A stretch of 60,969 bases of DNA from Phoronis australis (taxonomy: Eukaryota; Animalia; Phoronida). The notes under the pieces are model-generated. The model saw nothing but the letters and a program-made list of their open reading frames with translations. It had not been told where the DNA came from and ran no database searches. Made by a program: the position numbers and the translations under genes. Position 1 is the first letter of the stretch, and each line of letters starts with the position of its first letter. Location of the stretch: positions 154,561 to 215,529 of the forward strand of contig NMRA01000627.1 of the NCBI GenBank assembly GCA_002633005.1. The letters are read 5' to 3'. This document shows, piece by piece, positions 15,883-56,068 of this stretch.

Positions 15883-15974
15883 TTAAAGTTCACATATGTA
15901 ACGTGCTTTGTCGCTGCACCCCTTGCTTTCCATGTTCTGGTTACTGGGATTGAAGACCGTGCAAGCGTTTCCGT
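15883..15974 (-). CDS. Copy 1 last exon: CTLD C-half
   Basis: Translates (D)GNACTVFNPSNQNMESKGCSDKARYICEL*; AATAAA at 15767-15772 downstream. Confidence 0.8.
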
Positions 15975-18778
15975 CTGTAAAAGAGCCAAAGGTCACGTGG
16001 TATGAATACTACAATAACACTCATAAGTTTGAGTTGCCGATTACTTACCTGAAAAGACCGATATCTCCTGGTGCTGGTGACAGAATATTCATTAGAACAA
16101 AATTTTAGCTCGAGCGTAGTTCTTTTGTTCTGCGTCAACCAATATTTTGAGTATAGTGGAACATTTGTGGTTATTCGCCTGAGCGACAATAACGGAAGTT
16201 TTATACAGACTTTCACTCGATTTACAGACGACGGATTTAGGGAGGCAATGTCCCACCTCTTTGGAAGGACCAAAAACAAAAGTGACCGACATGTCATTTG
16301 CATGTGTAACGTAAAAATAAACCTTCAGAAATTGTCATTCGCTCGCCCCAGCCCCTTCCCCCAATCCCATCATTCATACAACCTTGACCTGCAAAATATC
16401 CAGTTTAATACAGAATAGGTAATTAATTTATCCTGTCCTAAAAACTAAACAAGCTGAAACGCGAGATCGCCGCGTATGTTGATGTAAACTGGACGTGATT
16501 CATAAACGAGGACTTTTTCATTATTTCAATTTACAATGCTGTGGAAATGTATAGTTAGCTATTTAGCAATTTGTGATAAATGCAGAGCGAATTTCTTGTC
16601 GAACGACTAAACGAAAGGATACAACTAAAAGTACATACTCAATTCTGTTTATTTAAAAACGCAGCTTTATTTTAAAAGAACGATACTACTACCGTTGTTT
16701 GTTACACAGGGTTCGAATTAGATATTAAGCTACAAGGCCGACAACCTATAGGAGTCAAATTTTGAAATCAGGAAAATTTAAATTCTTACCAACAACACTC
16801 CACACCTCAACGTCGGTCCATTTAACATTATGTCCACAGCCGAGTGTTCCGTTGTAGGAGTGATGAAAGCAGTAGCCGTTAGACGGGAAGTACTTGTTGG
16901 GGCTGTTATATGAGTAGCTGCCATAGAAGAGCGTCAGATCGTGACCATTGCCAAAGGTTGGACCATATTTGTAGGTATCGTACAGAGCGTATTGTTGATA
17001 CCTGTACTGACTGTATTTGGCTGATGTACATCCCTGTCTACACAGCCGAAACACGAATGTGTTGCTGTCGGGCTTGTAACTCCCAACACTTGTCCAGGAG
17101 ACAGAGGCATAACCACCGAACGTGGTTCCACTCGTTGAATCTTTCCCAATAGAGATGGTTGGGCCCTTATTGTTGCATCTGCTGTGGAATACTGATCCGT
17201 TCATACCGTCACGTGATGCCCTGTACAGGAGCTTGAATGTCTTTCCCGGGAACCATTTTCTCAGCAAAGCTACGTTGTCTATAGTCAACAAATTTGAACT
17301 AAAAATGGCCCCCATGTCTGAAATTCAAACATATCATAGACGTATCATCACTGTTTCCAAGCTGACAATGCAATTTTTGTTATTGGCAGTACTCGAAGTA
17401 TTAGTTGGCACAATTTTTGTCACTTGAACAGGTAAAAAAGTATCCAAAATGAAACGTGAAACCTGAGGAGTTAATACACAAAACGTACCCAGAGTGGCAC
17501 ACATGAAGTAAGATCCCACGAGAAATTATTCCGCGTATCGACCGAGACCGAAGGTCGAGTGGGATATTACTTCATGTACGCCAATCGAGGTACGTTTTGT
17601 ATTTATCCTATGCGCTTCGAATTCCTAAGTTTCATACATTTTTGCGGCTGATATTTCAAATACTTCACCAAGACTGTTCACATGACGGATCACATCTTAT
17701 ATGTATAAACTTGCGCGTTAGGTTCCAAGTTTTCTTTTGTAAAAGAAACAGTTTTAAAAGTAACGATTTATTTCTTGGAAAGAGGTAGCAAAGATGAAAA
17801 CAACGGCAACTGAGCAGTTGACTTGTAACATCTCCCGGAAAAGTTAAAAAACAACATTATTTGATGTTTTAATTTCCTAGGAATCGGCGCCTGAGTTGCA
17901 AACGATATAGTATTCAGCAATTGAAAACTGAGACATAAGTGTCTTATAATTAACAGTTTTGTTCCAGATTTTAAGTTAAGGGCCTGGTTGCATGTCGAGT
18001 GTCAGTTGCAACTGTATTACTTTAAACTATCTTCGGAAAGTTTTATGATCGAACCGGATGAAGACGTCGAGTCGACATTGACCTACCTTTTGAACTTTCC
18101 ATGTCAGAGGTCGCTGTTGAAGTAGTGCGGAGGTGAATCCGGAAAAAGTTATTTCGTGGCCGTATTTCCATCGACAGATTCACCGCGCGTGGGATAATAT
18201 AAAGTATACAATTAAAAATAAATAAAAATTTGGCGTTTAACGCCATTGGAGTTGATACCTTTTCGCGTTCCTTTACCTGTATCCCATATGGCGTCGCCTT
18301 TTCTCAACGATCTTTGAGCAAGGAAGGATCTCAAACGATGAGAGTCCAAAGAAACTACGTGAGAATTGTCTTCAAGACATTTCCTTTTTGCGGTTTCCCA
18401 ATCCACTGAAACGTCGCTCAGTTTGAAACACGAATGTTCAAAGTAACGATATTGACTTGGGCAATATAGTTTACTCAGAATACGTTCGAAGGAGGACGAA
18501 GACATTTCGCGTTGACGTATGACATCCTGGAGTAACTCGGTAGCAATACGTCGTTCTTCACCGCTTTTGTTTCGCATTTCTTCAAGCTCCGTTTGAAAGT
18601 GAGTTATGGTTTTTAGAACAGTCGATTGGAAAATCCGGTTGCTTTTTTCTTCCTCTTTCAATAAAGAGATTACGGATTGTTCGAGAACAGATCTCTTCGC
18701 GGCAGCCGAAGTCGCGTGGAGAGGCGTGGCTTCGTGACATAGCACAACGATGACTATTAAGAGATTAACAGTGAACAT
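15883..18778 (-). CDS. Copy 1 (type A): secreted coiled-coil C-type lectin-like protein with an inserted TLDc domain; exons 18778-18277, 17317-16790, 15974-15883 (~373 aa)
   Basis: Donor ACAG|GTAAAG, acceptor TTTCAG|AC, donor GTTG|GTAAGA, acceptor TTTTACAG|AC. All introns are phase 1 and the frame is continuous from ATG to TAA. Six long-form CTLD cysteines are split between exon 1 and the last exon. Confidence 0.85.
16790..17317 (-). CDS. Copy 1 TLDc exon (528 nt, phase 1-1)
   Basis: TLDc motifs FKLLYRASRDG..FHSRCNNKGPTI..FGGY..SW..FVFRL..GPTFG..DL..DVEVW. Confidence 0.9.
17472..18197. mobile_element. Crypton-like non-autonomous element in intron 1 of copy 1
   Basis: Absent from the other three introns. 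A ~130-nt inverted repeat (17472-17603) abuts a TATCCC...GGGATA-bounded segment. A second, inverted copy lies at ~22205-23490. Family assignment is inferred from structure only. Confidence 0.55.
18277..18778 (-). CDS. Copy 1 exon 1: signal peptide, KR, coiled coil, CTLD N-half
   Basis: Hydrophobic leader MFTVNLLIVIVVLC; CPSQYRYFEHSCFKL..DWETAKRKC..HVVSL..IW matches the CTLD N-terminal pattern. Confidence 0.85.
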
Positions 18779-18903
18779 TTCTACTCATGGGTTTATCAAC
18801 AAGCACAGCTAGGCCGTTTCACAACACCAACGGGCAACAAATCGTCCTCAACTGTACTACGTCACTGGAGATTGTCAAAGTGACAGGAACCTACATGTAC
18901 CAT

Positions 18904-18932
18904 CCTTTTATAATGTGAACGTTTGTGATAAG
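18904..18932 (-). promoter_or_regulatory. Candidate TATA box with adjacent GATA motif upstream of copy 1
   Basis: TATAAAA at 18912-18906, ~130 nt before the ATG. TGATAAG and TATA-like motifs lie at similar distances in the other copies. Confidence 0.35.
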
Positions 18933-19104
18933 GAAAATATCTCCCTCAAGGTGATATTTTTCTTCAGGCCCGTAACCAGGGGGACTCTCCCCACTGAAAA
19001 GGTCCAGCCTCAGCCCATCTGTTAGAGATAGGATATAGATGAACAACAACAAGAACAACAACAACAACAAAATTATTGCAGTTACCGGTACTACTAGTTA
19101 TAAT

Positions 19105-21709: not shown

Positions 21710-21893
21710 ATTAAGTTTGAAGAATTTGCTTCTGATTTAAGCGCTTCGTATACTCATCGGGCCCTACATGGCCCCAGGGCCCAATTTCGCCCGAGTGGTG
21801 TTTTGCCTCTTGCAGACATTAGAGGAGGCTTGACATCATTAATTGGCATTGAACGTGAGTGGTTGCTTCACCGTTATCGTCGATATTATCGGT

Positions 21894-23588
21894 AGCCAAA
21901 CGGGTGAATGTTACGCCGTCAAATTATGTGTTATTAAGTTAATTCTTGTCAGAGACATAAAGTAATTATTTGCAGAGTAAAGTAATTATTTGCGCAGTAA
22001 AGTAATTATTTGCGGAGTAAAGTAATTACTTAAGACTTAATACATTACGGCGTAAAGTAAGTATTTGCGGCGCTTAAAGTTACTTTACGCCGCAAATAAT
22101 TCCTTTGCGCTCTACTAAGTTTCTTTGCGCCGCAAGTAATTACTTTACACCGCAAATAATTACGTTACGTTGTAAAAAGTTACTTTACGCTACAAATAAT
22201 TACTTTATCCCATACGCGTTGAATCTGTCGAGGGAAATACGGCTATGTAATAATGTTTTCCGTATTCATCTCCCGCACTACTTCAACAGTGATCTCTGAC
22301 AACAAAGGTTCAAAAAGTAGGTCAATGTCGACTCCACGTCGTTAGCCGGTTAGATCATCAAATTTTCGGAAAACAGCTTAAAGTAATACAATTGTAGCAG
22401 TGTAAATACCACTCAACATGCAATCAGATCTCAATCGTAACATATGGAACAGGACTGTTAATTATATGACAGTTCTGTCTCAGTTTTCAATTTCTATATA
22501 TTATATCGTCTGCAACTCAGGTACCCATTCCTCGCCAATATCAAACATTGTTGTCACTGGCCATGACAGCACCCGATACTATCGGCGACAGTATTATACG
22601 AGCAGCAACGACGACCGTGCTACAGAATCCGTAGCCAGCCAGCTAGCGCGGTATGAACACACTGTCGTATATTTAGTATACATCTTTGTACCAAGGCTAC
22701 AGAATCGGTAGAAATGCGACAACGTACCTGCAACAACGCTACAACAGGCATATTCGCCGGAGCTGTCATCAACGGTGGCACTTAACTTCTCCGTGAAGAC
22801 AGACGACGCGTAGGCTACGCGCTGCGGTCAATGACCTAGTTTCATGAATGAGTGCAACTACCCGATGAGGATTTTACACTGTTATAAATATTGTTGTTAT
22901 TTATTCATTTCCGAAATGCACAATAACTGTCGTTTTCACACTTTTTATCAGTTTCAAGTAATAAAGTGCTACATTTAAAACTGTTTTCTTTTACTATAGT
23001 AAGTTAGCAACACAACGCGCACGTACATACAAACAGGTTGTGATTCGCCACGTAAACAGTCAGGGTGAAGTATTTATAAAGTGCCGAAAGAAAACAAAAG
23101 AAACCAACGAATTCGATGCGTATGGGATAAATCCAAAACGCACCTCGAGTGGCGTATATGAAATGACATCCCACTCGACATTATTTCACGTATCGACCTC
23201 GACGTTCTGTCTCGGTCGATACGCGGAATAATTGTATAATTACTTTAAAGTAAGGAATATACAACCCTGCAAAACTGCCTTTTGGGAATCCATCAATGCC
23301 TATTTATTTTAGACCAACCGTGAATTTCTGTAATTTAGATATGAGTGCGTGCGTGTGTGTGCCTGTGTTTCATTTGCAAAGATCTTATTGTTTGTAAGTA
23401 TTTGTGTATTTAGAAATAAAATGATTAAAAAAAAGATACGCGGAATAATGTCTCATCATGCACGCCACTCTCGGTACGTTTTGTGTATTTATGCCACAAA
23501 TAATTACTTTACGCTGCAATTAATTACGCCTTGAACAAGAATTATCGTACACACGTAATTTAACGGCGTAACGTTCACCCGTTTGGCC
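21894..23588. mobile_element. TIR element with 20-nt tandem repeats, carrying a nested Crypton-like copy
   Basis: GCCAAACGGGTGAATGTTACGCCG / CGGCGTAACGTTCACCCGTTTGGC; AGTAAAGTAATTATTTGCG repeats at 21958-22206. Confidence 0.65.
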
Positions 23589-23853
23589 AATGATACGCCA
23601 TAGGGTATCAAGGAAATTTAGAAGTAAATATCTACATGTATGATTACATGAACTTAAGCTTTAAAGCAGCGAAAGAGCTCTCAAAAAGTAATGTGGAGTG
23701 AATGTCTTAAAATCGACCAAGAAACAAAACAGCGGAAAATATGATTGTTTTCTGCTATTTTGATATGCTTGCTAGCATAGTACGGTATTGTGCAGGCATT
23801 TCAACTGTCGAATTGACGATGATCTCAAATATCCCTACTTCGTATTCTTTTAA

Positions 23854-27778: not shown

Positions 27779-28119
27779 AAGGATATTCAACCTCTATTGA
27801 TAATTTCAGGCAAACTTCTTTCTGTCTCATTGTTCCCAATCATGAAAACTAGAAGCAGGAATCAACTACGTACTTATACTTCCTATGTCAAAGATTGTAT
27901 ATTATGATTCTCGGTTGTTTTTATCACAGTTGCCATGTAATTTGCTAAAAGGCTTGGTCACGCTTGTCCGCTTAGCAAACATCGAAACGAGTTTTAAAAT
28001 TTTCCTCCAAACGTTTGAGGGTTGCCAAGTGTTACATAGCATTATTTTGTTTCAGGGAATTGAATCAAAATGTCGCTTTTAGTATCTGTTAATAGGACAC
28101 AACCGGGCCAAGTATCCTT
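27779..28119. mobile_element. Kolobok-like MITE, also present at ~48727-49044
   Basis: TTAA|AAGGATA ... TATCCTT|TTAA. Confidence 0.45.
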
Positions 28120-28973
28120 TTAAACAGCCTCCTGATTTCTAAGAAACTCGAGTTGTGTTATTAAGGCACTTCCAAGAATACGATAGTATATCACTCCGGC
28201 TGGTCTGCTTACTCAGCTTGTCCGGAATCTGCTTTGCCAGGTTGTTATAGCCCAGTTGGCTGTTTGGTGTACTCATTTGGTACTTTATATGATATTTGCC
28301 CATTTGGCAGTTTTTACCAACTTGGTACTTATTGAATTTGCCGATTTGCTTAACCCAGTTGGTAGGCAATCGGCCAATACCCATTTGGTATTATGTACCC
28401 ATTTGTTACTATGCTAACCTGTGCCACTTAGTATCCGATACTCAATTTCACTTTGGATATCGGAAATGTGTGTGTTATCAGTTGTAATTAAGGAACCCAC
28501 CCCAAAGGCATCTGGTTCCTTCAGCGAAATATTTACTTGTAGAGTTGTGACCCTGAAATTCCCAATACAACTTAAAATATATATTATTCTTGTGGTTTTA
28601 TATGTCCCCAATAATCCCAAAACTGCGTTTTTGTCGTACAACGATAATGCCCTGTTAAATGAAATTTCAAGAATCGGGAGAAACTTTCAAACATTTATAC
28701 ATACACAGCACTGATTCGTAGTTTAAGCGCAAACAATCTAAAATTACAACTTCTTCATAAAACAAATTCCTAACGTTTCTTCTCGCATTTTTCGCGTGAG
28801 CAGCTCATTAGTAGTATATGTCAACCTCAAAACGTTTGTGTTTTATTAGGAGATTGCTGATTGTTGGGCTCCCGGCGAAAGCGTGTAGCGCCCTTATAGG
28901 GCTTTATCGTTTTGCCATTGAAAATGATATATTTATCAAATGAGTTAAGACTTCTTGATATTATGTAGCTCTG

Positions 28974-29215
28974 TCAATTATTTGAAGACTTCTTTTGGAA
29001 TACCATCTTCTCCAGGGGTTTTATCGTTTTTAAGTTTATTTGTTGCGTGATTGATTTCGGACACGTCGATTTCCTTATTAAGTTGTACCAGGATTTCATC
29101 ACCAGGTGTGTTGGCACAGTCATTGCAGTTTTCGTCATGCTCTCGCATTTCATCCAACAAATTATTAAGGAATTCCCCGTTTTCAATGTTCAAAAGATTT
29201 TTTGTGCATAAGATT
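28974..29215 (-). mobile_element. Non-LTR retrotransposon (LINE) ORF2 fragment
   Basis: LNKEIDVSEINHATNKLKNDKTPGEDGIPKEVFK, the typical pre-RT K-x-PG-x-DG motif. Confidence 0.75.
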
Positions 29216-30135
29216 TTTCATGTAAAGGAAACGTACTACCTCCATGTCTTGCAATACTAAACAATGAGGCATGCTTTATATTGTGTTCTTTATTTCATGC
29301 CCCAAAATGTCGCGTAATATTTTTACACCACGTGACCGCTACTTGCTTGAAATGACCCGTTTTTCATTTCAGCATAAGTTCCTGATAAAAAATAACAAAA
29401 CAGTGGTCGATTTCTTGTTTGATTTATATTTATTTGTGTCAGTGCGTTGGAAATTGTGTGTTTTAAATTAATTACCGTCAAACAACGGATATATCTGAGT
29501 AATTTCCCTTTTTATAACACCATATAAAGGTTTGACAGCCAATATACCCGTTGGTCGAATGTAAAACAAAAAATGAGAATCTCGCTCGGCTATGACCATG
29601 AAATGTGTGTGCATAACTTGCGTTGCGAATCAACATTCGCACTAAAAAGTAGGTGTCTCAATGTGCTAAAAGTGTCCAAAATGGAAAGCAATGGAATGGC
29701 TTTTAAACATTTAAGTTTATCATTTTGTTACCATCAACTGAAGTCAGCCCAAGCCACTTGCACCTTTTAGGGATCGATCACGATTCTAAAGAGTGTAATG
29801 CGTAGCAATGGAAATTGTAGCTCAAAACTTAAATAATATGGTGTTTGATAAAGTTTTAAAGTTTTACGAAGCTTGAAAATTCCCTGAATGTTGTTTTTGG
29901 GAAATCAATGGTATCGTTGATTTTGACAGCAGTTATAAAGATTTTCCATGAATAAAATGTTCAGATCTAGAAAGTGACAAGTGAAAAATAAAATTCAAAA
30001 ATTCTATTCCAGCACAAAAGTTTATTGAAATTTTCGAGTTTGAATATTTTTAATAGTACATAAAATTTATCAATGTTTTCCGATTCTAAATTGCTTATAG
30101 TTTAAGCCGTGTCGTGGGCGCTGTATTATTCTGAG

Positions 30136-30221
30136 CTAAAGTTCACAGATGTAATGTGCTTTGTCGCTGCAGGCCTTGATTTCCAAGTTCTGGGAACTGA
30201 AATTGAAAACCGCGCATCCGT
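30136..30221 (-). CDS. Copy 2 last exon: CTLD C-half
   Basis: GCAVFNFSSQNLEIKACSDKAHYICEL*, visible at the end of ORF 30136..30435. Confidence 0.8.
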
Positions 30222-33200
30222 CTGAAAGAGAGGCAAGAGTCACATGGTATGAGTAATACAGTAACAGTGAAATAATTGTGGTGCCAGTTACTTGAAAACT
30301 CCACAACTCCTGGTGTTCGTGAAAGAAATATGTTTGACCATAAAAATATATGTAAACAACCAAATTTGGTTTGGGCGTAGCATTTGTGTTTTGCGAGTAC
30401 AAAGAGTATTCTGGAATTATTTGCCCAGGCTGCACTAATATAAAATTTGCTCTAACAGGGCGAATTTAGAGAGGCAGGGTGCGACTTGTTCGGAAACGAC
30501 CAGAAAAAAACACGGCCGACATGCCATGTGTAGGGCTTATGCGAACATTTGTCTTCACAAAATGGTGATTCGCCACCCAATTGGTCGTCAGAAAAGTGTG
30601 AGCCCCTCCCCTTTCATCTCAGCTTGACCCGCTAGTAAAATACGGAACATAAAGTTCAAGACAGAATGAGTAATTAATTTACACGATTCTCAAAAACTAA
30701 CCCAGCTGAAATCCACGGCCGATGAGCACGTTCATGTACAATGCACGTGACTTACATGTACAAACCTGGGCCCGGAATCTAATCTTTGAACTCGAAACGT
30801 TCTCGAAATAATTTTCGTAATTTCTCTGCTATTTTTGTGCGTACTCAATATAAGTGGTTATCACACTGTGCTCGAACACATTATAGTTTATATATCATGA
30901 GTTTCTCGTCCAAGTTTGCATTTCATGAACCTTTATATTCGTGCTTCAAACTCGAGTAAAACTCGAGATTTCGAGTTCAAACTCGAACTTTTACCCGTAA
31001 TATTGGGTTTATAAACTGTAAACTAGGACTAAACAATTATCTATATAAGTTATTGTGTACTCGATCATAGAATAATAGACAACTATACCACAATATTAAC
31101 TTCCAATGGCAAATACAAACGTGTGATAACCCATTTAGTTATCTCACTAGTGAGATAACATTTTGGCGTTAAACCGAGGCAGGTTTCGAACCCAGGCCTC
31201 AAGAGTTTTGGGTCGCCGACTTTACCACTCCACTCAGCGGCTGACGTCATCGAGCGTGAAAATAGAATACTTAAGTGAGCACGTTCAATAATCCCATGTT
31301 CAACAAAGGGCATTGTACTGACATTTATAAGCTATGAAAAATAAGACGCATAATTTCCAGCAAAACGATATTTTAATTGAGTGAAATTTATCTCTCATTT
31401 TCTTTCACTTGTAAATCCCCGATGTCCAATTTGAATGCGGATATCGTATCGTCGGGATCCTTTGACTTGAGAATTATACTCAGTTACCAGTGGTAACCTA
31501 CTTTAGCAGACGATAGTTTCCCGGTCGAAGTTTGACGTGATAAAATGTGTTTTAAGCTGTACTAGTTGTTAAACTTTATGACTTTATTTCTATTTTGTTT
31601 AAATTTTCAATTGGTTTTAAATAAAATCATTATTAAACAAAAATAGCTCGGCTTTTCTTAAAAGGTCACGACCTCAGAAAGTAGTTACAAAGCCGAAGCG
31701 AGTCGAGAAAGGTAAATCAATTTATTGCGATGTTTCTCGTTTAGTATGTGGTATAATATAATTCTCAAAATCCACGAGGGTTCTAGATAAGGGGCATAAC
31801 GACTGAGAACATGTAATAACCTATGTTCATCATGAGTTCGCATAAAAGTAGAGCAGAAATTTCCAAACTTAATTCGAAGTTCAATTTTGAGTAAAAACAT
31901 TAGAACCCTCGGTCAGGACTGTTTCTTTACTTCAATTTAGAACGTGAAGTTAACTTCCTTAACGCAATGAAAATATAAGTAGCGCTTTAGCAAATTGTGA
32001 TCACTATTTTAAGAGTTTAACTTTACTCCTGCTCAGTGAGTTTGAACGCTAACGATTAAAACATAGACTTAGAAGTAATATGTTAATTCAGTTTATTAAA
32101 AAAACGCAGTTTTATTTTAAAAGAACAGTATACCAGTGAAATTTGTTTGTCACAATTGTTTCGAAAGATATATTGAATTTGGGATTTTTTGTATTACAAT
32201 ACATAGAAGTCAATTTTCAAACGCTTACGAAAGGTTAATTCTTACCAGCTACACTCCACACCTCAACGTCGGTCCATTTAACATTGTATCCACAGCCGAG
32301 TGTGCCGTTGTAGACGTATACTTTGCTGTAGCAGTAGCCGTTAGACGAGAAGTACCTGTTTGAGCTGTCATACGAGTAGCTACCACTGAAGAACTTCAGG
32401 CCTTGACCCCTGCCAAATGTTGGACCATAGTTAGAGTTATCGTACACAGCACCTGGTTTATACCTGCGCTTACTGTACCTGACTGATGTACATCCCTGTC
32501 TACACAGCCGAAACACGAATGTGTTGTAGTCGGGCTTGTAGCCGTTGACACTTGTCCAGGACACAGAGGCATAACCACCGATCGTGGTTCCACTCGTTGA
32601 ATCTATCCCAATAGAGATAGTTGGGCCCTTATTGTTGCATCTGCTGTGAAATACTGAAGCGTTCATTCCATCACGTGATGCCCGGTACAGGAGCTTGAAT
32701 GTCTTTGTCGGGAACCATTTTCTCAGCAAAGCTACGTGGGCTGTAGTCAATAAGTTTGAACTCAGAATGGCTCCCATGTCTAAAATTCAAGCGTATTATA
32801 CAAACATGAAGTATCATACATGTTTCGAAGCTGACAGTGCAATTGCGCTATTGGGATTATAGCCAAATAATAAAAATGGCGGTTACCGAAATGTTAGTTT
32901 ACACGATTTTTGTCACATTAACGTCCGAAAAGGAGTCACAATGAAACGTGAAACCTGAGTAGTTTATTCATGAACACGCCAACGTGACTGAATACTGGTA
33001 AAAACGACAGACAGTTAACAGTACTTTTTTCAAACATCCAAAATATTTACTTTATTAAAAATGCTAGATAACAAAAAGCCCCATATACACACTGCAATTG
33101 TGTACAGACTTGTTGAATGCGTAAACAATATACACATCAATATAAGAACGTCCACATGAACAAATTTTCCATGCAACATAGACTACGAGTAAACAGGTTT

Positions 33201-34201
33201 ACCACTACAACAAGATTGCTTAAGTACAAAGTATTGCAAATTAAATAACATTCATTGACAGAAACTTCTCATTCCAATATTTCATTACATTTGATACGTT
33301 TATTGGACGGAAGTAACACAACAGAGGAAATTTTACCATTTTCATCCTCTACATTAGGTCTGAAGCCTCCCCACTTTTCTGAGTTATTGATTAAGGTTCA
33401 AAAAACCGTCAAAATCAAAGTTAGTGAATACTTTAACAGACTACCTATCACCACCTAAACACACAACCTTTAAATATAAGGTCCTGGCTCAACTATGTAC
33501 CAAAATATAATTACACAATACAGGAAAACACTGACGTAACACATGTCTGAAGCGTAAAGTAAGATAGTGGCGATAATCTATTTCCAAGATGATGGGATTT
33601 TGAAATAAGGTTGTGCATCGTACAGAGTGGAAGGTTTCTTTAACTAAAATGCTTTTGAAAATTTGATATTTAACGTCATTGGCATTAATGCATTTTCCCG
33701 TATTTTACCTGCAGCCCATATGGTGTCGCTCTTTCTCAAGGAATCTTGACCCGGGAAAGTTCTCAAACGATTAGAGTCCATCAAGACTACGTGAGAATTG
33801 CCTTCATGGCATTTCCTTTTCACGGTTTCCCAATCTGCTGATGTGTTACTCAGTTTGAAACACGAATGTCTAAAATAACGATATTGACTTGGGCAGTACA
33901 GTTTACTTAGAATGCGTTCGAAGGAAGACGATGACATTGCTCGTTGACGTATCACTTCCTGGAGTAACTCCGTGTGAGAGCGATTCATGTTTTTTCGCAT
34001 TTTTTCAAGCTTCGTTTGAAAGTTAGTTATGCTTTTCAGAACAGTCGATTGAAAGTTTCGGTTGTTGTTTTCTTCATCTTTCAGCAAGGAGATGACGGAT
34101 TCTTCAAGAACAGACCTCTTTACGACAGCCGAAGTCTCCTGGGAAGGCGCGACTTTGTGACGCAACACAACGAAGACCACAAGCAGATTAACGTAGAACA
34201 T
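30136..34201 (-). CDS. Copy 2 (type B): same architecture; exons 34201-33709, 32779-32246, [30309-30292 micro-exon], 30221-30136 (~370-376 aa)
   Basis: GCAG|GTAAAA, TTTTAG|AC, GCTG|GTAAGA, TTTCAG|AC; frame intact; AATAAA at 30021-30026. Confidence 0.85.
30765..31917. mobile_element. ~1.15-kb TIR element in intron 2 of copy 2
   Basis: Imperfect TIRs CCTGGGCCCGGAATCTAATCTTTGAACTCGAAA / TTTTGAGTAAAAACATTAGAACCCTCGGTCAGG; absent from paralogous introns. Confidence 0.6.
31173..31241 (-). pseudogene. tRNA-derived / Pol III promoter-like segment
   Basis: A-box-like GAGTGGAGTGGTAAAG and B-box GGTTCGAAACC; poor acceptor and anticodon stems. Confidence 0.5.
32246..32779 (-). CDS. Copy 2 TLDc exon (534 nt, phase 1-1)
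   Basis: TLDc motifs as in copy 1; splice sites in homologous positions. Confidence 0.9.
33020..33545 (-). mobile_element. ~520-bp insertion in intron 1 of copy 2, possibly a retroposed 3' end
   Basis: Absent in copy 4 (~55295); minus-strand AATAAA followed by a short A-run at the left edge. Confidence 0.4.
33709..34201 (-). CDS. Copy 2 exon 1: signal peptide, coiled coil, CTLD N-half
   Basis: ORF track 33644..34201, truncated at the conserved donor after IWAA. Confidence 0.85.
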
Positions 34202-34944: not shown

Positions 34945-36802
34945 GAGTGACTCCATATATAAACCAACAGGTAGAGTCTATACCCAAAATCACAGATTTT
35001 TTTGAAACTTAGCACATGAGTTTGGTATGTTGAGATGTATAAAAACCTCACTTTTCAAGAATTTTCATTCATTATTTTTCTTTTTATGACCCGTACCTCC
35101 ATTTTGCAACAAAATTGGGCGTCGAAGTAGGCATGTTTGAATGCATTTTACTAGCATGTGTGGTAAGGTCAAAACAAATGAACAATACGAATTGAAAGGT
35201 CAATGGCTGAATAATTTAATGGCATAACTTTCAAAATTCATTTTTAAATTTGTACGTTTTGAATTTATAAGTCAAAAAAGGCTATTTTTCATGTTTTCAC
35301 TGAAGCCATTTTTGGCCAAATTTGGCACTCTGTAGCAGCCATAACGCACCTTTCCTGAAATTGACTTTATGATAATTTGTTCATTCACTCCTAACCTGTT
35401 CATAATCTAAAATAAAAAATCTTGCCTCTAATGTAGTTTTTGCGTACGAAGCANNNNNNNNNNNNNNNNNNNNNNNNNNNNNNNNNNNNNNNNNNNNNNN
35501 NNNNNNNNNNNNNNNNNNNNNNNNNNNNNNNNNNNNNNNNNNNNNNNNNNNNNNNNNNNNNNNNNNNNNNNNNNNNNNNNNNNNNNNNNNNNNNNNNNNN
35601 NNNNNNNNNNNNNNNNNNNNNNNNNNNNNNNNNNNNNNNNNNNNNNNNNNNNNNNNNNNNNNNNNNNNNNNNNNNNNNNNNNNNNNNNNNNNNNNNNNNN
35701 NNNNNNNNNNNNNNNNNNNNNNNNNNNNNNNNNNNNNNNNNNNNNNNNNNNNNNNNNNNNNNNNNNNNNNNNNNNNNNNNNNNNNNNNNNNNNNNNNNNN
35801 NNNNNNNNNNNNNNNNNNNNNNNNNNNNNNNNNNNNNNNNNNNNNNNNNNNNNNNNNNNNNNNNNNNNNNNNNNNNNNNNNNNNNNNNNNNNNNNNNNNN
35901 NNNNNNNNNNNNNNNNNNNNNNNNNNNNNNNNNNNNNNNNNNNNNNNNNNNNNNNNNNNNNNNNNNNNNNNNNNNNNNNNNNNNNNNNNNNNNNNNNNAG
36001 TGTTTAAATTAACCTGATTATGTAAAAGAAATGAAGGAATAAAAAAGGGTTACACGTACATTTTTATATATCCTCAAGCTCAACCTCAACTGACTCCCTC
36101 AGTGGGCAAAGGTCATCGGGTTCAGTTTTGATACTAGCCGCGTAATAAACCCGGAAACATCTTGTTTTCATTTGAAAGACTTTAGACTTGGTTTCTATAA
36201 CTAGTTAAAGCAGACTTCTTGCCCAAAAGTTTGTTCAAATGGTCTGTAAACTCTGCTCGTCATTTCCAAACTATGAAAATAGACTGTTTTGCAAGACAAT
36301 TTTCACTAAAGTGTAAAGTTGAGGCAAGATTTTTTATTGCTCAGTCATCAAGACTAACTCTTTAACTATATGTTCAAAACGTCCCATAAGGCTACAAGGT
36401 GTTTTATGGCAGTGAGAAGGTCACAAAAATGGCCACTAAAATTAGCCCCAAAAAGTGGTCTGTGGATTATCTCCCCTGTCTAGCACAAAACTGTCAGATT
36501 TTAATAAATGACACAGAATTTTGCACAGTATACGTTGGTTATTTCAGCCACCAAAATATAGCTTTTGATCTATTTTGTATGTTACTCATTTTTGTTGCTG
36601 AAAACATGCGATTTTTGAGACGTCTAATATGCCCAATTGTGCCAAGTTGTGTTATCATGCTCCAGCGGCGAAATTAGAGGTCATTGAGTGCACAAAATTT
36701 GGCATTTGGGTTTTTGTTAGGATACCTACCCATGTACAAAAAATGAATTTTGACGTATAGACTGATTTTTGAAAATCTACTGGTTTTTATATGGACTGCC
36801 TC
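34945..36802. mobile_element. TTAA-targeting TIR element (Sola3- or Kolobok-like), spanning the assembly gap
   Basis: TTAA|GAGTGACTCCATATATAAACCA ... TGGTTTTTATATGGACTGCCTC|TTAA; empty site near 56825. Confidence 0.6.
35454..35998. other. Assembly gap
   Basis: 545 consecutive N. Confidence 0.99.
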
Positions 36803-44325: not shown

Positions 44326-44653
44326 TTAAAGTACACATATGTAACGTGCTTTGTCGCTGCACCCCTTACTTTCCATGTTCTGGTTACTGGGATTGAAGAC
44401 TGTGCAAGCGTTTCCGTCTGTAAAAGATCCAGAGGGCACGTGGTATGAGTAGTACAGTAACACTCATAAGTTTAAATTGCCGATTACTTACCTGAAAACA
44501 CAACATCTCCTGGTGTTGGTGAAAGAAATTTATTGTTTGAACTATAAAGATTCATATATGTAAAAGAAATTTGTAGTTTGAACTAATTATAGTGATACAC
44601 ACAACACATATATATATATATATATATATATAACTGCCAAATTATAGTGATAT

Positions 44654-44690
<37 letters not shown>

Positions 44691-46764
44691 ACTGCCGGAT
44701 TTAGGGAGGCAATGTTTCACCGCTTTGGAAGGTCCAAAAACAAACGCGGCCGACATGTCATTTGTAGCGGTTACGCAAACATTAACCTTCAGAAATTATC
44801 ATTCGCCCCTCCCCCCACTTCCCCTATTCCCCCCATTCTTACACCTCCTTGAAGTGCAAAAGCTCAATAGAGAATCAGTAATTATTTTATCTGGTCCTAA
44901 AAATATAATCAAGCTGAAACGCATGCTCTTTGTATGTTCATGTACACTGGACTTGATTCACAAATGAGGATTTTTTATTTCAAGTTAAAACATGAAGTTA
45001 TTTCCACAACAAAGCGATAATGCATAGGGAGGCAGTGAGCAATTTGTGATCACGGCAGAGAGAATTTCCTGTAAAACGTCCATACTTAACAACAAAATGT
45101 ACATACTTGGTTCTGTTGATTTAAAAACGCAGCTTTATTCTAAAAGAACGACACTACTACAGTTTGTTCGTTACACGAGTTACCAATAATTAAGTTGGAA
45201 AGAGTTTTTGAACTAGATAATCAGCTACAAAGCTGACAATTTATAGGAGTCAAATTTTGAAAAGAGGACAAAAGATAAATTCTTACCAACAACACTCCAC
45301 ACCTCAACATCAGTCCAATTAACTTTCCTTCCACAGCCGAGTGTGTCGTTGTAGGTGGATTTTTTGCACTAGCCATTAGACGGGAAGTACTTGTTGGTGT
45401 TGTCATACGAGTAGCTACTATGGAAGAACATCAGGTCGTGACCCCCGCCAAATGGTGGACTATAGCTGTAGCTACTCCATAGAGCGTATTGTTGCTCCCT
45501 GCACTGGCTGTACTTGGCTGATGTGCATCCTTGTCTAGACAGCTGAAACACGAAAGCGTTGTTGTCCGTCTTGTAGCTTTGGAAACTTGTCCAAGAGACT
45601 GAAGCATAACCTCCGAACGTAGTTCCATTCTTTAACTCCTTCCCAATAGAGATGGTTGTGCCCTTATTGTTGCATCTGCTGTGAAATGCTGAACCGTTCA
45701 TACCGTCACGTGATGCCCGGTACAGGAGCTTGAATGCCTTTCCTGGCAACCATTTTCTCAGCAAAGATACGTGGTATGAAGTCAATAGGCTTGATTTGAG
45801 AATGTCCTCCATGTCTAAAATTCAAACGTATCATAGGTGTATCATCCGTGTTGATAAGCTGTCAGTTCAACTTTCATTATTGGAATTACAGCGAAACAAC
45901 AAAAAATGACAGCACCCGAAATATTGAAATATTAGTTTACATCATTTTTGTCACACGAATATTCAAAAAGGACCCACAAGGAAACGTGAAAACTGAGGAG
46001 TTTATTCTTCAACGAAACGAATGTAACTGACAATGTTGCTGCTAAAAACAACATACAATGACTTGACTGAATTAAACGTAAAATGATGTATTGTATACAA
46101 CTAATCTATGTTGTAAGATGATGGGATATTGAAATAAGTACAAGTGTAAACTAGGTACTCGTGCATCATATAGAATGGAAGATTCCATGCTTCTGAAAAA
46201 TTGTCATTCACGCGTTTGGCCTTAATACTTTTCCCCGTATCATTACCTCGAGCCCATATGGTGTTGCCTTTTCTCAACGCTTCTTGACCAAGAAGGGATT
46301 TCAAGTCATGAGAGTCCATGGAAACTATATGAGAATTGTCTTCAAGGCATTTTCTTTTCGCAGTTTCCCAATCCACTGATACGTCGCTCAGTTTGAAGCA
46401 CGAATGCCCAAAGTAACGATATTGACTTGGGCAGTATAGTTTACTTAGAATGCTCTCGAAGGAGGATGATGACATTTGGAGGACGAAGAAATTTCGCGTT
46501 GACGTATGACATCCTGAAGTAACTCAGTAGCAATACGTCGTTCTTCACGCTTTTGTTTCGCACTTCTTCAAGCTCCGTTTGAAAGTGAGTTATGGTTTGT
46601 AGAACAGTCGATTGGAAAATCCGGTTGCTTTCTTCTTCCTGTTTCAATAAAGAGATTACGGATTGTTCGAGAACAGATCTCTTCGTGGCTGCCGAAGTCG
46701 CGTCGAGAGACGTGACTTCATGACACAGCACAACGAGGACTATTAGGAGATTAGCGGTGTACAT
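44326..46764 (-). pseudogene. Copy 3 (type A): disabled paralog; exons 46764-46247, 45814-45287, [44509-44492], 44417-44326
   Basis: Exon 1 has a 1-nt deletion near 46548 and a 17-nt duplication at 46461-46494 (net frameshift). TAC>TAG stop at 45369-45371 in the TLDc exon. The AATAAA present in the other copies is lost. Confidence 0.8.
44586..44696. repeat. Duplicated (CA)n(TA)n microsatellite cassette
   Basis: AATTATAGTGATA(CA)n(TA)nACTGCC occurs twice. Confidence 0.85.
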
Positions 46765-49700: not shown

Positions 49701-50899
49701 ATGGAGGCTAATTGTTATTGGTGTGATTTTGGAAAGCTCAAATACAGGCGAAATAATGCATTGTCTGGGAATACTGACAAATGCATTGGCATATAAGAAT
49801 GTAAGGTTATAGCATTCCTTTACAAGGCCAGTCGTCTTTTGTGCCTTCTGCTAACCTGCCATGATCTACACTATCGCAATAATAGAGTATTGATTCACTT
49901 AAGCATTCCATGAAATTGCAGAGAAGCACCTGCCGCAAAGGTTACAATGGACAGCATACGTTGAAATAATGTGTTTCTTCAGAAGAAATGAAATCGGATG
50001 GCTTATTGTTCGAATATTCTCATATCAATTTATTTGATACTTACGTTAAAAGTTGCTTATGCAATAAACGAAACCAAGAATATGGCACGAAATTTATCCC
50101 ACTAAATGTCGTTTGTAATTGTAACACATTCGAGTTAATGACGGTTTTCTTTTTATATTGCAATACAAAATATCTTGGAAATAGTTCAAGTTTGTATCAA
50201 AGACTAATGGAAAAAGAATCATGTGCTTCGTTCCGCAATAACTTTGTGAACACTCTTTAACAATGCTACCGACATTGCCTAACTACTTGGGATGAATAGG
50301 AATATTCATTGTCACGGCAACACCTTATGTTTTCAAAAAGTATTAACTGTTGTAAAAATGTTATGTAGCTCTAACGATGTTGAACAAGGAGTTGACAAGT
50401 TTATTTGCCATTGCAATTATTTTTGTACTTTCGAAATAGTGCTCATCCTACTGAAATACTAGTTACACACATTTGGTTTCAACATGGATATGTAAAGAAG
50501 TCCTGACAAATCTGTTGCGAAAGATGTGCGCATTTTTTTATGTTGTCAATTGCCTAGACTACCATTTTCGTACTCAGATTCATACTGTGGCAGTTAATCA
50601 CTTACGATTTTTTTGAGATTTTATGCAGGCTTAAAGAGCAAGGCTAAGCAAATAAAGTAATTCTACAGACATCACTGATAGCAGCCCGTAATCGAACTGC
50701 CTACTAATTCTGCAAAAGCATCCGGACGCACTACTCCTAAACCAAATCCCACTTACGCGTTAAACAGCGGAGTACTTTAATAAGCAGAGGGTACTCAAAT
50801 GATAAATACGCCGATTGTCAGACACACAACGGCTAAATTTATTTGTAATAAAACCACAAAACACACCGTATTTTGTTGTTTTGTACCTCCAGTCAACGG

Positions 50900-52900
50900 T
50901 AGTAACTTCAAAAAATCGTCCCCGTTTAACTGTAATCCAAAACTTTCGAATTGTTGTTTTTCATGACGAAGTTGAAAGACGTCCTACTCCGATAATAAAT
51001 ATTGACATCGATGTAATCATCGGGCTTGCAAACTTTTACATTATCCCTTTAGGCTATTGATTTCCTTAGTGGAGTGTTCGTCCTTGAGGTAGTTATTGGA
51101 CATGACAGTTTTGTAAAATAACTTTTTGGTAACACCGGTCCGACGCGCAATGGATTCACAATTAATTCAGGACAGTATACAAAAGCATTGGTGCAGCCAA
51201 TAATCATCAGGGTTTGTCGTGTGCAACCTACCTCTTGATTGAAAAACAGCCAATTAAGAGAACCAAATACGCACTTCTTAGGAAGTCGACCACAACTGCA
51301 ACCTCATACAGCTCAGAGCACTCACTTTTGGCGTGAAGACAAAAACCTTTATCAGTATGCTTGTGATAAACTGATGTTGAAAATAGAATCTTGTCATTTC
51401 CAGGAAGTTCGTGGATAAACTTAAAAAAGTGACTCTGAAGTTCATTACGTACTGATAACAGGCCATCAAGATTACAATAATTATCAATACCAGCCAATTA
51501 TCTTACATAGCTAGGAATACCACCGATCACATTGCTAGTATGGTTTTCCTCTTCAGACTTAAATAACTTTGAAAAGTTTGGACCCAGAGGAGAGCCAGTG
51601 CTGACAACATCTTTTTTGTAGAAACAATTTACCATTTATTGGGGACAAATAAAACAACAACAATAATAAATATTTTAAGTTGTATTGGGAATTTCAGGGT
51701 CACAGCTCTACATATAAAGATTTCACAGAAGGAACCAGATGGGTTCCTTATTTACAAGAGATAACACACACATTTCCGATACCCAAAGTGTAATTGAGTA
51801 TCGGATACTAAGTGGCACAGGTTAGCATAGTACCAAGTGGGTACATAATACCAAATGGGTATTGGCCGATTGCCTACCAACTGGGTCGAGCAAAGCGGCA
51901 AACTCAATAACAAGTACCAAGTGGGTACAAACTGCCAAATGGGCAAATATCATATAAAGTACCAAGTAGGTACATCAAACAGCCAACTGGGCTATAACAA
52001 CCTGCAAAGCAGGTAATGGCAAAATAGCACTTTGGTAGTGCAGATGGTCAGCAACTCTCTCATATGAGTTGGTGAAATCTTGGGTGGCATTAAATGTGGG
52101 TGATGGTAAACACTATAAAAAATGATAGCAATTGTCGCATCAACAAGCATGTTGGTGAATAAAAACATAAGTTGGTAATGAGGGGATGGCACTTGCGTGC
52201 GCATAATATCAATGAAATCTGTACGAGATTTAATGGAGTATTGACTCTGAATGTACGGTTTTGTGATGTTAACTAGATGCTTCGCTCTCTTGTACGTAGG
52301 CGTCATGACTTGGGATATTATTGGCCGAAGAAGAACATCTTTTTGTGCATTTTAGGGTTACCATTGAGATAACCTTCGGAGAAGTCACCTTCGATTACAG
52401 AGAAAATGTGACCACCAACCTTAGAATTTATAGCCTTAATGGGACGATTAAGTTCATGGTTAAGATGGATGAAGGGTGTCCGACTAACGTTGGTAAACTT
52501 GGTAGGGTCACATATTAATACTCAATTTATCGGGATAGTCATCTTTGTTTAAAATAACGTACTGAGCAGACATGTCGGCGCAGCGAATAACGATACCATC
52601 ATTATTGTTGAGCCGCTTGGAAGCATCTCTGCAGACGACTAAGGAGAGAGCACACTGATGATTTTTGATGCGACACTGATACCCGTGCGAGAAAGTCCTT
52701 TTCTGCAGAGTCCCAATCATAGTCTGACAGGTTCACATAGGTTTCACGTTCCTCTGGTAGTTTAACGTCACTGTGGTAGAGACTGGGCAGTTTCTTTATG
52801 AAATTCTTCTCAAATATGAGCTCATGTTTCGCTATGTTCGTATGGATACACTTAAAAATAACCATTGTTAATGACGACAAGTGTCGTGTATTCAACCAAT
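50900..52900 (-). mobile_element. Degenerate Penelope-like retroelement
   Basis: TPTYKRAKHL..LFTN..VDATI..PPKI..MRELLTICTT; TGSPLGP; TSVYHKHTD..L..KSEC; IYYRSR..VMKNN. Interrupted by a ~370-bp insert at ~51640-52012. Confidence 0.75.
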
Positions 52901-53635
52901 TTTGTAAGTCGGAAAACTTGCTGTTGAAGTACTTCTAGTTATGTATTTTGTGTCCGTGTATTGTAAATTTTGTGTCTCAAATTATTTGTACTCGAACAAC
53001 ATGGATATCGGCTAATTAAATTCCATTTTGAATCACTGTCGAAGGTTTGACAGCCAATGTCTCCGTTGCTAGAATGTAAAACAAAAATATGAGAACTTTG
53101 GTCAGAAACCATGAAATCTGTGTGCATACTGAATGTTGCAAATCAACATTCGCACTTAGAAGAAACCGGTGTCTCAATTTGCTAATATTGTCATACTTGG
53201 AAAACACTGGAATGACTGCTTAAGATTCAAGTTTGTCATCAAATTGCAACCTAATGGAGTCATCTCAAGCAACTTGCATATTTTAGAGACATGCTTAAGT
53301 AATGTAGTGAATAACAATGGAAATCATAGCTCTAAATTTATACAATTAAGTATTTTGGTATAAAATCACGAAGGTTAAAAATTCCCTAGGATGCTGTATT
53401 TGTGAAATCAATGGTATCGTTGATTTTGACCGCAATGACAGGTTTTACCGGAATAAAACGTTCAACTTCTACAACTTACCAATGAAAAAACAACACAAGA
53501 ATTGTATTTAAGCAGATATGTTTATTTAATCTTTGAAGTTTGAATGCTCTTTGGCAGTACACAAACTTCGTCAGTGCTTTCAATTCCTAAATGCGTACAC
53601 TTTAAGCCGTGTCGTGAGAGCCGTATTATTCTGAC

Positions 53636-53721
53636 TTAAAGTTCACATATGTAACGTGCTTTGTAGCTGCATCTTTTGTTTTTCATGTTCAGGGTACTGG
53701 GATTGTAAACCGCGCATGGAT
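53636..53721 (-). CDS. Copy 4 last exon: CTLD C-half
   Basis: PCAVYNPSTLNMKNKRCSYKARYICEL*. Confidence 0.8.
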
Positions 53722-56068
53722 CTGAAAAAGAGACAACGGTTATATGCAGCAATTTACAGATGTTTGAGGTACTGACTACTTACGTGAAAACATCATAACT
53801 CAGTGCTGGTGCAATAAATTTGTTGTTTTACCTATATGTGTGGGCGTGCGCACGTGTGCTTGTGTCTTGCCGCAAACAACATTTCCAGTACAATAGAGTA
53901 TCTGTGATCAGCAGCACTAATGTAAATTTTATGCTGAAAGTTAGTTGATACATCTAAGACGAACTTAGGGAGACAGGGCCCCACCTCTTCGGAAACGACC
54001 AAAAACAAACGCGACAGACATGTAATGGGCAGATGTTATGCGAACATTTGCCTTCATAAAATTGTGATTCGTCCCCAATTTTTCGTCAAAAAAGTGTGGT
54101 AACCTTCCATCTAACCTTGATCCGCCAGCAGGGCCGAACATCAAGTTTCATGAAGGTTCAGTAGGTTCAGTAATGAATTTTCTGGTTCTCACTAACTAAG
54201 CCAGTTGAAATGTAGTCCTGTACACTGAACGTGACTTACAAGGATTTTTCTTTATTTCAAGTTACAACGCACTGCTAATGTATAGTGAGCTAATTAGCAA
54301 TTTATGATCAATACAGAGTAAATTTCTTGTAGAACAGCTACACAAATAAGATTACAACTAAAAGTACATACATAATTCTGTTCATTTAAAAACGCAGTTT
54401 CATTTTCAAAGAACGATGCTACTATAATTTGTTTGTTAAACAGTGGTCGAATTTAATATTCAGCAACAAGGCCGAAAATCTATAAGAGTCCTGTTTTGAA
54501 ACGTGGGTAAAAAGTAAATTCTTACCAACAACACTCCACACCTCAACGTCGGTCCATTTAACAGCATGTCCACAGCCGAGTGTTCCGTTGTAGGTGGATT
54601 TATTACAGTAGCCGTTAGACAGGAAGTACTTGTTGGAGCTTTCATAATATTTGCTATCACCATAGAACACCACCAGATCGCGACCCTTACCAAAGGTTGG
54701 ACCATGAAAGGAATCATCCACCAGAGCGCTGTGTTGATTCCTGTACTGGTTGTATCTGGCTGATGTGCATCCTTGTCTACACAGCCGAAACACGAATGCG
54801 TTGCTGTCGCGTTTCTCACCAACGGTGCTTGTCCAGGAGACAGAGGCATAACCACCGAACGTGGTTCCGCTCGCTGAATCTTTTCCCATAGTGATGGTTG
54901 GGCCCTTATTGTCACATCTGTCGTGAAATGCTGAACTGTTCATACCGTCACGTGATGCCCGGTACAGGAGCTTGGATGTCTTTTCCGGGAACCATTTTCT
55001 TAGCAAAGATACGTGGTCTGTAGTCAGTAGGTTTGAACTAAGAATGGCCTCCTTGTCTGAAATTCAAGAGTTTCATGCAAAAAGGGAGTATCATTCATGT
55101 TTCCAAGCTGACATTGCAATTGTGCTATTGGAAGTATAGCCAAATAATAAAAATGGCAGAAACCGAAATGTTAGTTTACACGATTTTTGTCACATTAACA
55201 TCCGAAAAGGAGTCACAATGAAACGTGAAACCTTAGTAGTGTATTCATGAACAAGCCAACGTAACAGAATGCTGGTAAAAACGACAGACAGTTAAAACTT
55301 ACTTGTCTGAAGCGTAAAGAAAGACAGTGGCGTTAATCTATTGTCAAGATGATGGGATTTTGAAATAAGCATAATTCTTAACTAGGGGATCCTGCATCGT
55401 ATAGAGTGGACGATTTGTTTCACTTAAAAATGCTTCTGAAATTTGATAGTTAACGTCATTGGCATTAATACATTTTCCGTGTCTTTACCTGCAGCCCAAA
55501 TGGTGTCGCCCTTTCTCAACGAATCTTGACCAAGCAAAGATCTCAAACGTTGAGCGTCCATAAAGACTACGCGAGAATTGTCTTCAAGACATTTCCTTTT
55601 CGCGGTTTCCCAATCCACAGATACGTTGCTCAGTTTGAAACACGAATGTCTAAAATAACGATATTGACTTGGGCAGTACAGTTTACTTAGAATGCGCTCG
55701 AAGGAAGACGATGACATTGCTCGTTGACGTATAACTTCCTGTCGTAACTCGGTAGCATTAAGTGAAAATGCATTGCGTAGTTCCGTGTGAGAGCGATTCA
55801 TGGTTCTTAAAACCATTGAATGAAACTCCAGGCTCTTACGTCTCTCTTCACTGCTTTTGTTTTGCATTTCTTCAAGCTTCGTTTGGAAGCTAGTTATGCT
55901 TTTTAGAACAGTCGATTGAAAGTCTCGGTTGCTTTTTTCTTCATCTTTCAGCAAGGAAATGACGGATTCTTCAAGAACAGACCTCTTAACCACAGCCGAA
56001 GTTGCCTGGGAAGGCGCGACTTTGTGACACAGCAAACCGCTGACTACTAGTAGATTAGCATAGAACAT
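53636..56068 (-). CDS. Copy 4 (type B): same architecture with the longest neck; exons 56068-55489, 55056-54526, 53721-53636 (~398 aa)
   Basis: Start assigned by homology (MFYANLL; an upstream in-frame ATG lies at 56098). GCAG|GTAAAG, TTTCAG|AC, GTTG|GTAAGA, TTTTCAG|AT; AATAAA at 53521-53526. Confidence 0.85.
54526..55056 (-). CDS. Copy 4 TLDc exon (531 nt, phase 1-1)
   Basis: Begins (D)KEAILSSNLL; the ATG seen in other copies is AAG here, so this is an internal exon. Confidence 0.9.
55489..56068 (-). CDS. Copy 4 exon 1: signal peptide, coiled coil, CTLD N-half
   Basis: ORF track 55424..56098, truncated at the conserved donor. Confidence 0.85.

What the first reader, a model, noticed from the sequence alone, without database searches (positions are those of the whole stretch)
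15883..56068. Secreted C-type lectin fold with an entire TLDc domain inserted in its ligand-binding loop, expanded as a tandem family
Seen: in four paralogs, three phase-1 exons splice into signal peptide + coiled coil + CTLD N-half (CP..C, C, ending at the IW of the WIG-equivalent strand) + TLDc + CTLD C-half (C..C..YICE). The ORF track shows these as unrelated ORFs. Known: TLDc proteins (OXR1, NCOA7, TBC1D24, TLDC1/2, IFI44 family) are cytosolic and several bind V-ATPase. The CTLD long loop after WIG normally carries EPN/QPD, followed by WND; none of these motifs is present here. Inference: the lectin acts as an oligomeric scaffold displaying an extracellular TLDc domain, possibly a new pattern-recognition, effector or toxin family. 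I do not know of a described protein with this nested architecture.
Basis: partly seen in the sequence, partly recalled or inferred. Interest (0 to 1): 0.92.

Follow-up and report, generated by a model that had tools for sequence, protein, structure and literature searches.

The report
Secreted lectin carrying swapped-in TLDc head
An animal gene family splices a whole TLDc domain, known as a cytosolic proton-pump regulator, into the place of the sugar-binding loop of a C-type lectin-like protein that is predicted to be secreted, so TLDc likely serves here as a binding head outside the cell.

Summary
The architecture is real. Four minus-strand, three-exon copies encode a predicted signal peptide, a predicted coil, the first half of a C-type lectin domain (CTLD), a TLDc domain and the CTLD end. 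One 1191-nt contig of a related copy bridges all three exons; stranded RNA reads show the exon 2-3 joint directly and the exon 1-2 joint as loose ends. The TLDc fold is confirmed. It is unusually basic and has two glycosylation sequons and a CxxxC rare or absent in 288 relatives, fitting life outside the cell. Secretion, CTLD closure and function were not tested. This scan earlier found TLDc-in-CTLD in bacterial surface proteins; there the loop is kept and trees reject a shared clade, so the nesting likely arose twice. No description turned up in nine paper searches. Best guess: a secreted recognition protein with TLDc as its variable head; a V-ATPase toxin is unlikely.

The parts
18259..18778 (-). 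Copy A exon 1: predicted signal peptide, KR site, predicted coil, CTLD first half (C106, C117, C134; ends W-x-x-G-K).
   Evidence: stranded reads
16790..17317 (-). Copy A exon 2: complete TLDc domain, phase 1-1
   Evidence: Pfam TLD E 6.8e-24; model pLDDT 86.8; Foldseek 4acj E 4.5e-8
15883..15974 (-). Copy A exon 3: CTLD end with three cysteines (C-x14-C-x7-C, YICE) and stop
   Evidence: joint to exon 2 in 194+113+3 reads
33709..34201 (-). Copy B exon 1 (only the upstream donor is present)
32246..32779 (-). Copy B exon 2, TLDc
30136..30221 (-). Copy B exon 3
46229..46764 (-). Copy C exon 1, broken by a 1-nt deletion and a 17-nt insertion relative to A (pseudogene or null allele)
45287..45814 (-). 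Copy C exon 2, TLDc with an in-frame TGA at 45369-45371
44326..44417 (-). Copy C exon 3 (97% identical to A in protein)
55489..56068 (-). Copy D exon 1, coil 26 residues longer than in A; the downstream GT is out of frame
54526..55056 (-). Copy D exon 2, TLDc
   Evidence: bridged to exons 1 and 3 by X1 contig 2
53636..53721 (-). Copy D exon 3

Best explanation
These genes splice a TLDc exon in place of the sugar-binding loop of a C-type lectin-like protein, giving a likely secreted protein in which the lectin halves are predicted to close into a pedestal that would hold TLDc outward as a variable binding head, most likely for recognising microbes or other foreign surfaces. Steps: (1) shown: three exons on one transcript in related copies; (2) shown: TLDc fold and loss of the Ca/sugar loop; (3) inferred: origin by exon shuffling, a phase 1-1 TLDc exon taking the place of the loop-coding part; (4) predicted: export by the signal peptide, trimming at the KR site, glycosylation and disulfides; (5) predicted: the coil joins several chains so that the heads bind with avidity; (6) inferred: the basic, Tyr-rich, fast-changing second half of TLDc is the binding face, and acidic surfaces are the likely targets.
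For: A 1191-nt contig bridges exons 1-2-3; stranded reads cover exons and almost no intron in copy D. Hydrophobic N-terminus in A, B and D (Kyte-Doolittle 11-residue peak 3.3, 2.8, 2.1) and no later membrane span in exons 1-2. KR at 28-29 in all four copies. Six CTLD-type cysteines kept in A, B and D. Sequon at TLDc N39 in 4 of 4 copies against 7 of 287 relatives; second sequon in A, B, D against 4 of 265; CxxxC at 92-96 in 3 of 4 copies against 0 of 288. Net charge +6 to +14 against a median of -1. dN 0.24-0.32 in TLDc 100-160 against 0.07-0.17 in 1-99; coil dN/dS 0.15-0.29. Laid reads per million records: about 201, 160 and 8 in three samples of one study. An intron downstream of WIGL is described in fish CTLD genes (PMC514892 passage). 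Nearest named TLDc relatives include invertebrate IFI44-like proteins, and that grouping is not rejected (p-AU 0.16).
Against: No ligand, protein or location data. Closure of the CTLD was not modelled. The variable block was chosen after seeing the alignment, includes low-confidence loops (pLDDT 50-64 at 131-160), and exceeds dN/dS 1 in only 2 of 6 pairs, four... of which three involve the broken copy, so relaxed selection explains it as well. Tyr content is not extreme (6-39% of relatives reach it). Sample types are unknown, so the uneven expression fits a gland, gonad or mantle as well as immune tissue. The signal peptide was judged by hydropathy only, and is weakest in D. No read set is near-identical to copies A-D. 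The IFI44-like grouping is not recovered in the slower trees.
Confidence: 0.45

Rival explanations
1. Same secreted architecture, but the job is non-immune: a matrix, mucus, adhesive, biomineral or gamete/seminal protein in which TLDc binds a self partner.
For: Nearest Atlas clusters for exon 1 are perlucin-like (0.88) and seminal Acp29AB-like (0.88) lectins, leads only. Strong, sample-specific expression. Tandem growth and fast change also mark reproductive and matrix proteins (own knowledge).
Against: Scores under 0.9 show only a general CTLD likeness. Gene birth and death with a broken copy and mosaic exons is typical of defence families (own knowledge) but not exclusive to them.
Confidence: 0.3
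2. Extracellular redox guard: TLDc works outside the cell through its cysteines, as once proposed for OXR1-type proteins.
For: The TLDc cysteine C47 is kept (264 of 288 relatives, 4 of 4 copies). TLDc proteins are linked to oxidative stress by an unknown mechanism (PMC8329711 and PMC9263379 passages).
Against: No catalytic activity was tested or is established in the passages read. A redox job does not explain fast surface change or display on a coil.
Confidence: 0.1
3. Secreted effector or toxin that enters target cells and takes apart the V-ATPase through TLDc.
For: Several TLDc proteins bind and disassemble V-ATPase (10.1101/2025.05.24.655954 passage). All 14 listed Foldseek hits with E under 0.001 are such TLDc proteins.
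Against: Only 14-21% identity to those proteins. Of mEAK-7 contacts G276, H277, P316 and Q317 (PMC9263379 passage) only the glycine is kept, by the alignment. The binding site is on cytosolic V1 subunits, and no translocation part or membrane span is present. Sequons and extra cysteines point to an extracellular fold.
Confidence: 0.08
4. A chance fusion without selected function, or a TLDc exon that is usually skipped to give a compact CTLD.
For: Both introns are phase 1, so skipping would keep the frame. One copy is broken. Exon 1 joints were hard to see in raw reads, so a rare skip could be missed.
Against: No exon 1-3 joint is listed (one search lists all its joints; one search hides three). 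Exon 2 depth matches exons 1 and 3. B has no stop where neutral change at 10-30% would give 4-10 on average (none in 1.6%, 0.15% and 0% of 2000 trials). TLDc 1-99 dN/dS is 0.32-0.52.
Confidence: 0.05

Closest known systems
Coil + long-form CTLD proteins (DC-SIGN/CD209, DC-SIGNR, CD94; tetranectin and collectin layout recalled)
   Same: Helical neck followed by a six-cysteine CTLD. Exon 1 aligns to CD209 up to the W of the WIGL-type strand; exon 3 aligns weakly to the CD94 end.
   Different: The whole long loop, with EPN/QPD and WND, is absent and a 175-residue TLDc domain stands in its place. The N-terminus looks like a cleaved signal peptide.
TLDc family (OXR1/Oxr1p, NCOA7, TBC1D24, TLDC2, mEAK-7, Rtc5p, IFI44)
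   Same: Fold and core glycines. Sequence type lies with the IFI44-like, BTB-TLDc and protist TLDc proteins.
   Different: Internal and not terminal, behind a predicted signal peptide, with added cysteines and sequons; three of four aligned mEAK-7 contact residues are not kept.
Bacterial-type giant surface proteins with TLDc nested in a CTLD (P0064, probably P0058; earlier scan notes e1-4816522, e1-4987376; not found in print)
   Same: TLDc sits between the WIGL-type strand and the last CTLD strands.
   Different: P0064 keeps the loop up to its EP motif and inserts after it; it is a repeat of a 6157-residue protein. AU tests reject a clade with the window's TLDc (p 0.003, 0.026, 0.026), which points to separate origins.

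Membership tests
C-type lectin-like domain (CTLD, PF00059) | Four core cysteines plus the long-form N-terminal pair | tested here: met
   C106, C117, C134 in exon 1 and three cysteines in exon 3 in A, B, D; alignments to CD209 and CD94
C-type lectin-like domain (CTLD, PF00059) | WIGL-type strand | tested here: inconclusive
   W aligns with the CD209 W; the motif reads W-x-x-G-K/N and is complete only with the downstream donor
C-type lectin-like domain (CTLD, PF00059) | Pfam Lectin_C above the curated cut-off | tested here: not met
   Each half alone fails (exon 3: 15 bits against 22.6; exon 1: no hit); the halves were not scanned joined
C-type lectin-like domain (CTLD, PF00059) | Halves close into one disulfide-linked fold | not testable with these tools
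Ca-dependent C-type lectin (true sugar-binding CRD) | Long loop with EPN/QPD, and WND | tested here: not met
   Absent from the spliced frames; no loop-like exon found in the introns or window by motif scan
TLDc domain (PF07534) | Profile match above cut-off and TLDc fold | tested here: met
   72-85 bits against 24.5 in 4 of 4 copies; pLDDT 86.8; TM 0.68 to 4acj
V-ATPase-binding TLDc proteins | Contact residues for V1 subunits A, B, E | tested here: not met
   mEAK-7 H277, P316, Q317 not kept, G276 kept; Y341, T354, K384 lay outside the numbered alignment
V-ATPase-binding TLDc proteins | Cytosolic location and measured binding | not testable with these tools
   Sequence signs favour export; needs experiment
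IFI44-like proteins | N-terminal TLDc followed by a GTPase-like domain | tested here: not met
   No such domain in the spliced frames; IFI44-like hits P0094, P0115, P0137 carry MMR_HSR1

The most novel reading that the evidence does not exclude
TLDc is at root a portable ligand-binding module and not only a V-ATPase regulator. An animal and bacteria have each, independently, mounted it at the ligand site of a CTLD, and this animal has built from it a secreted, diversifying recognition family whose ligand would be the first extracellular TLDc ligand.
Probability: 0.4. Interest if true: 0.85.

Novelty: new variant of a known kind. Interest (0 to 1): 0.7.

Why it matters
The TLDc papers read treat the domain as an intracellular V-ATPase or stress module; a 2026 review has no mention of secreted, extracellular or lectin. 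An expressed, selected family that puts TLDc behind a signal peptide at a lectin's binding site gives a small, soluble test case for what else the domain binds, which also bears on the unexplained TLDc of IFI44. It is also a clean case of exon shuffling that exchanges the binding loop of a fold, and apparently converges with a bacterial layout.

Tried and rejected
No whole genome is held, so family size and the organism were not determined. Homolog searches with exon 1 found nothing (word-limited, weak evidence). The exon 2 search of longer proteins gave 11 TLDc proteins, none with Lectin_C. Of the 160 proteins fetched by then, 158 were scanned with Pfam and 0 showed Lectin_C; four of them had families beyond the five shown, and only 150 of 10,707 hits were listed. 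Viral and metagenome contig scans found no relative. The first fold, with 4 sequences, failed (pLDDT 31). The run search listed no indexed RNA holder; evidence comes from the laid reads only. A giant-virus source for the TLDc exon was considered because P0019 is the nearest row (SH 99 in FastTree, 90 in the mixture tree, unresolved in the third): not established. The careful tree did not finish; AU tests rest on a quick LG+G4 tree of 34 of 292 rows, after 25 long or distant rows were dropped from a 59-row set. Profile comparison of exon 1 with P0064 was not significant (E 0.17). No loop-coding alternative exon was found in the window. Eighteen other frames gave no Pfam hit. Nine paper searches showed no such architecture in listings; subscription journals are mostly missing and no supplements were read.
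Full report
Observation. The window is AT-rich eukaryotic DNA with no long frames. I call them A (18778-15883), B (34201-30136), C (46764-44326) and D (56068-53636). All introns have AG acceptors and GT donors in phase 1. A, B and D give open frames of 374 (380 with the second donor), 371 and 399 codons including the stop. C has a 1-nt deletion and a 17-nt insertion in exon 1 and a TGA in exon 2. Flank matches show that the array is a duplicated two-gene unit, A+B then C+D, with a third unit starting near 59.27 kb. TLDc of A is closer to B (dS 0.27) than to C (0.38), which suggests exchange between copies.

Domains. Exon 2 passes Pfam TLD in 4 of 4 copies. With 57 sequences it folds at pLDDT 86.8 and matches solved TLDc domains (4acj, E 4.5e-8, TM 0.68, 14-21% identity). 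The last 70 residues of exon 1 match CTLD first halves (CD209 E 6.7e-5, and most of the 60 listed rows are CTLD proteins); Atlas neighbours are Lectin_C clusters at 0.87-0.88, a lead only. Exon 3 matches CTLD ends weakly. Between the W-x-x-G strand and the first cysteine of exon 3 there is nothing of the long loop, so TLDc replaces it. Whether the halves close was not modelled.

Transcripts. Four runs were laid: X1 (contigs, RNA by guess) and X2-X4 (raw stranded RNA reads, 18-19% of each read). On A, first mates lie on + over the three exons, as expected for a minus-strand RNA; intron 1 also holds unstranded repeat reads. Joint 15974/16790 has 194, 113 and 3 reads and one contig. On D at 80% likeness, one 1191-nt X1 contig covers exon 1, exon 2 and the joint to exon 3. 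Loose ends of 184 and 116 reads at 55041 say the same: read by eye, they join the exon 2 start to a stretch that matches the 15 bases before the downstream donor site of D in 12 places. No exon 1-3 joint is listed. Most reads are only 80-95% alike, so this shows expression of the family, not of these exact copies; 214 and 183 loose ends do equal the first 30 bases of A exon 3. Reads per million records were about 201, 160 and 8 in X2, X3, X4.

Signs of export. A 12-residue hydrophobic stretch opens A, B and D, no later membrane span exists in exons 1-2, and a KR pair follows at 28-29 in all four. Against 288 fetched TLDc domains, the sequon at N39 (4 of 4 copies) occurs in 7 of 287, the second (A, B, D; C past its stop) in 4 of 265, and CxxxC at 92-96 (3 of 4) in 0 of 288; two cysteines in 140-165 occur in 49 of 288, among them all four bacterial-type surface domains. 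Net charge is +6 to +14 against a median of -1. The coil is judged from hydrophobic spacing only. Disulfides were not measured.

Selection. Pairwise dN/dS is 0.15-0.29 in the coil, 0.35-0.52 in the CTLD first half, 0.32-0.52 in TLDc 1-99 and 0.49-1.65 in TLDc 100-160. The block was picked after seeing the alignment, counts are small and three of six pairs include the broken copy, so this marks a variable face without proving positive selection.

Relatives. No full-length relative was found, and 0 of 158 scanned TLDc hits showed Lectin_C. The two unscanned giants are the exception: P0064 shows, by eye, a CTLD first half, a kept loop up to EP, TLDc and a CTLD end; P0058 shows the same start, and its far side was not printed. 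This agrees with earlier scan notes on myxobacterium-like proteins. The insertion point differs by about 20 residues, and AU tests reject the window's TLDc grouping with the nested bacterial domains (p 0.003 and 0.026) or with all four (0.026), but not with IFI44-like domains (0.16) (quick tree, 34 of 292 rows). The nearest single row is P0019, an unnamed membrane-anchored-looking protein with two TLDc domains; its place is not stable. Other hits pair TLDc with EGF, fn3, PKD, Stig1 or MACPF domains, so extracellular TLDc is probably not rare in sequence space.

Mechanism. Shown: the nested transcript, the TLDc fold, the loss of the sugar loop. Inferred: exon shuffling, since the TLDc exon is phase 1-1 and an intron downstream of WIGL is described in fish CTLD genes (PMC514892; the second intron here does not match the C2-C3 position given there). 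Predicted: export, a coil-held oligomer and a CTLD pedestal. Guessed: TLDc binds acidic foreign surfaces (0.45). A matrix or reproductive role (0.3), a redox role (0.1) and a V-ATPase effector (0.08) are the rivals. Against the last, only G276 of the four aligned mEAK-7 contacts is kept, the glycines needed for NCOA7 binding are argued to be structural (PMC8608904), and no entry part exists.

Literature. Nine searches gave no such architecture in their listings. I read passages only of PMC8608904, PMC514892, PMC8329711, PMC13570293, 10.1101/2025.05.24.655954 and PMC9263379; no supplements were read, and genome-paper supplements could list such a protein. InterPro architectures could not be searched. 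The tetranectin and collectin comparison is recalled.

Verdict. A real, expressed and selected domain-in-domain gene family with an architecture not found in print. Both domains are known and the function is inferred, so it is a new variant of a known kind; apparent convergence with bacterial proteins raises its interest. Score 0.7.

Noticed in passing
loose ends at window 15958 (X2, 51 reads) and 53718 (X3, 60 reads, agreement 0.75): An exon 3 variant is preceded by a different exon that ends in phase 1 with x-P-Y-K-P-Q-S-N and has no AG at the joint. It resembles the end of an ordinary CTLD long loop and may be the parent gene or an alternative exon. Not present in the window.
   Followed up: partly
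loose ends at window 54526 (X4, 19 reads): A TLDc exon end is followed by three codons and a stop: another TLDc gene with the same phase-1 3' boundary, a possible relative of the exon's donor gene, seen in the sample where the nested family is low.
   Followed up: no
window 59267-60332: Repeats the 3' flank of copies A and C, so a fifth copy or its remnant may lie beyond the right edge; the match stops at 60332.
   Followed up: partly
window 18568-18639 and 55753-55921: Reads show coil-length variants (goes back 72 or 87, skips 42), so expressed copies differ in neck length.
   Followed up: no
P0058 4410-4581, P0064 5139-5306: A second TLDc in each giant protein sits inside what looks like a split beta-sandwich domain, so TLDc nests in more than one host fold.
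   Followed up: no
P0019: 949-aa unnamed protein with an N-terminal anchor, a weak CPW_WPC match and two TLDc domains; looks like a giant-virus membrane protein (my reading) and is the nearest TLDc row.
   Followed up: partly
window 18788-18765: A short out-of-frame upstream ATG frame overlaps the start codon in A (ATG also present in B and C, absent in D), and a TATAAAA lies at 18912-18906.
   Followed up: no
window 2441-2900, 10026-10338, 21957-22208, 17484-18227, 28417-29217, 12193-13198: Palindromic satellite-like repeats, transcribed dispersed repeats in intron 1 of A, and decayed LINE-like and other mobile-element-like frames (by eye; no Pfam hit). An assembly gap of 546 N lies near 35450-36000.
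   Followed up: partly
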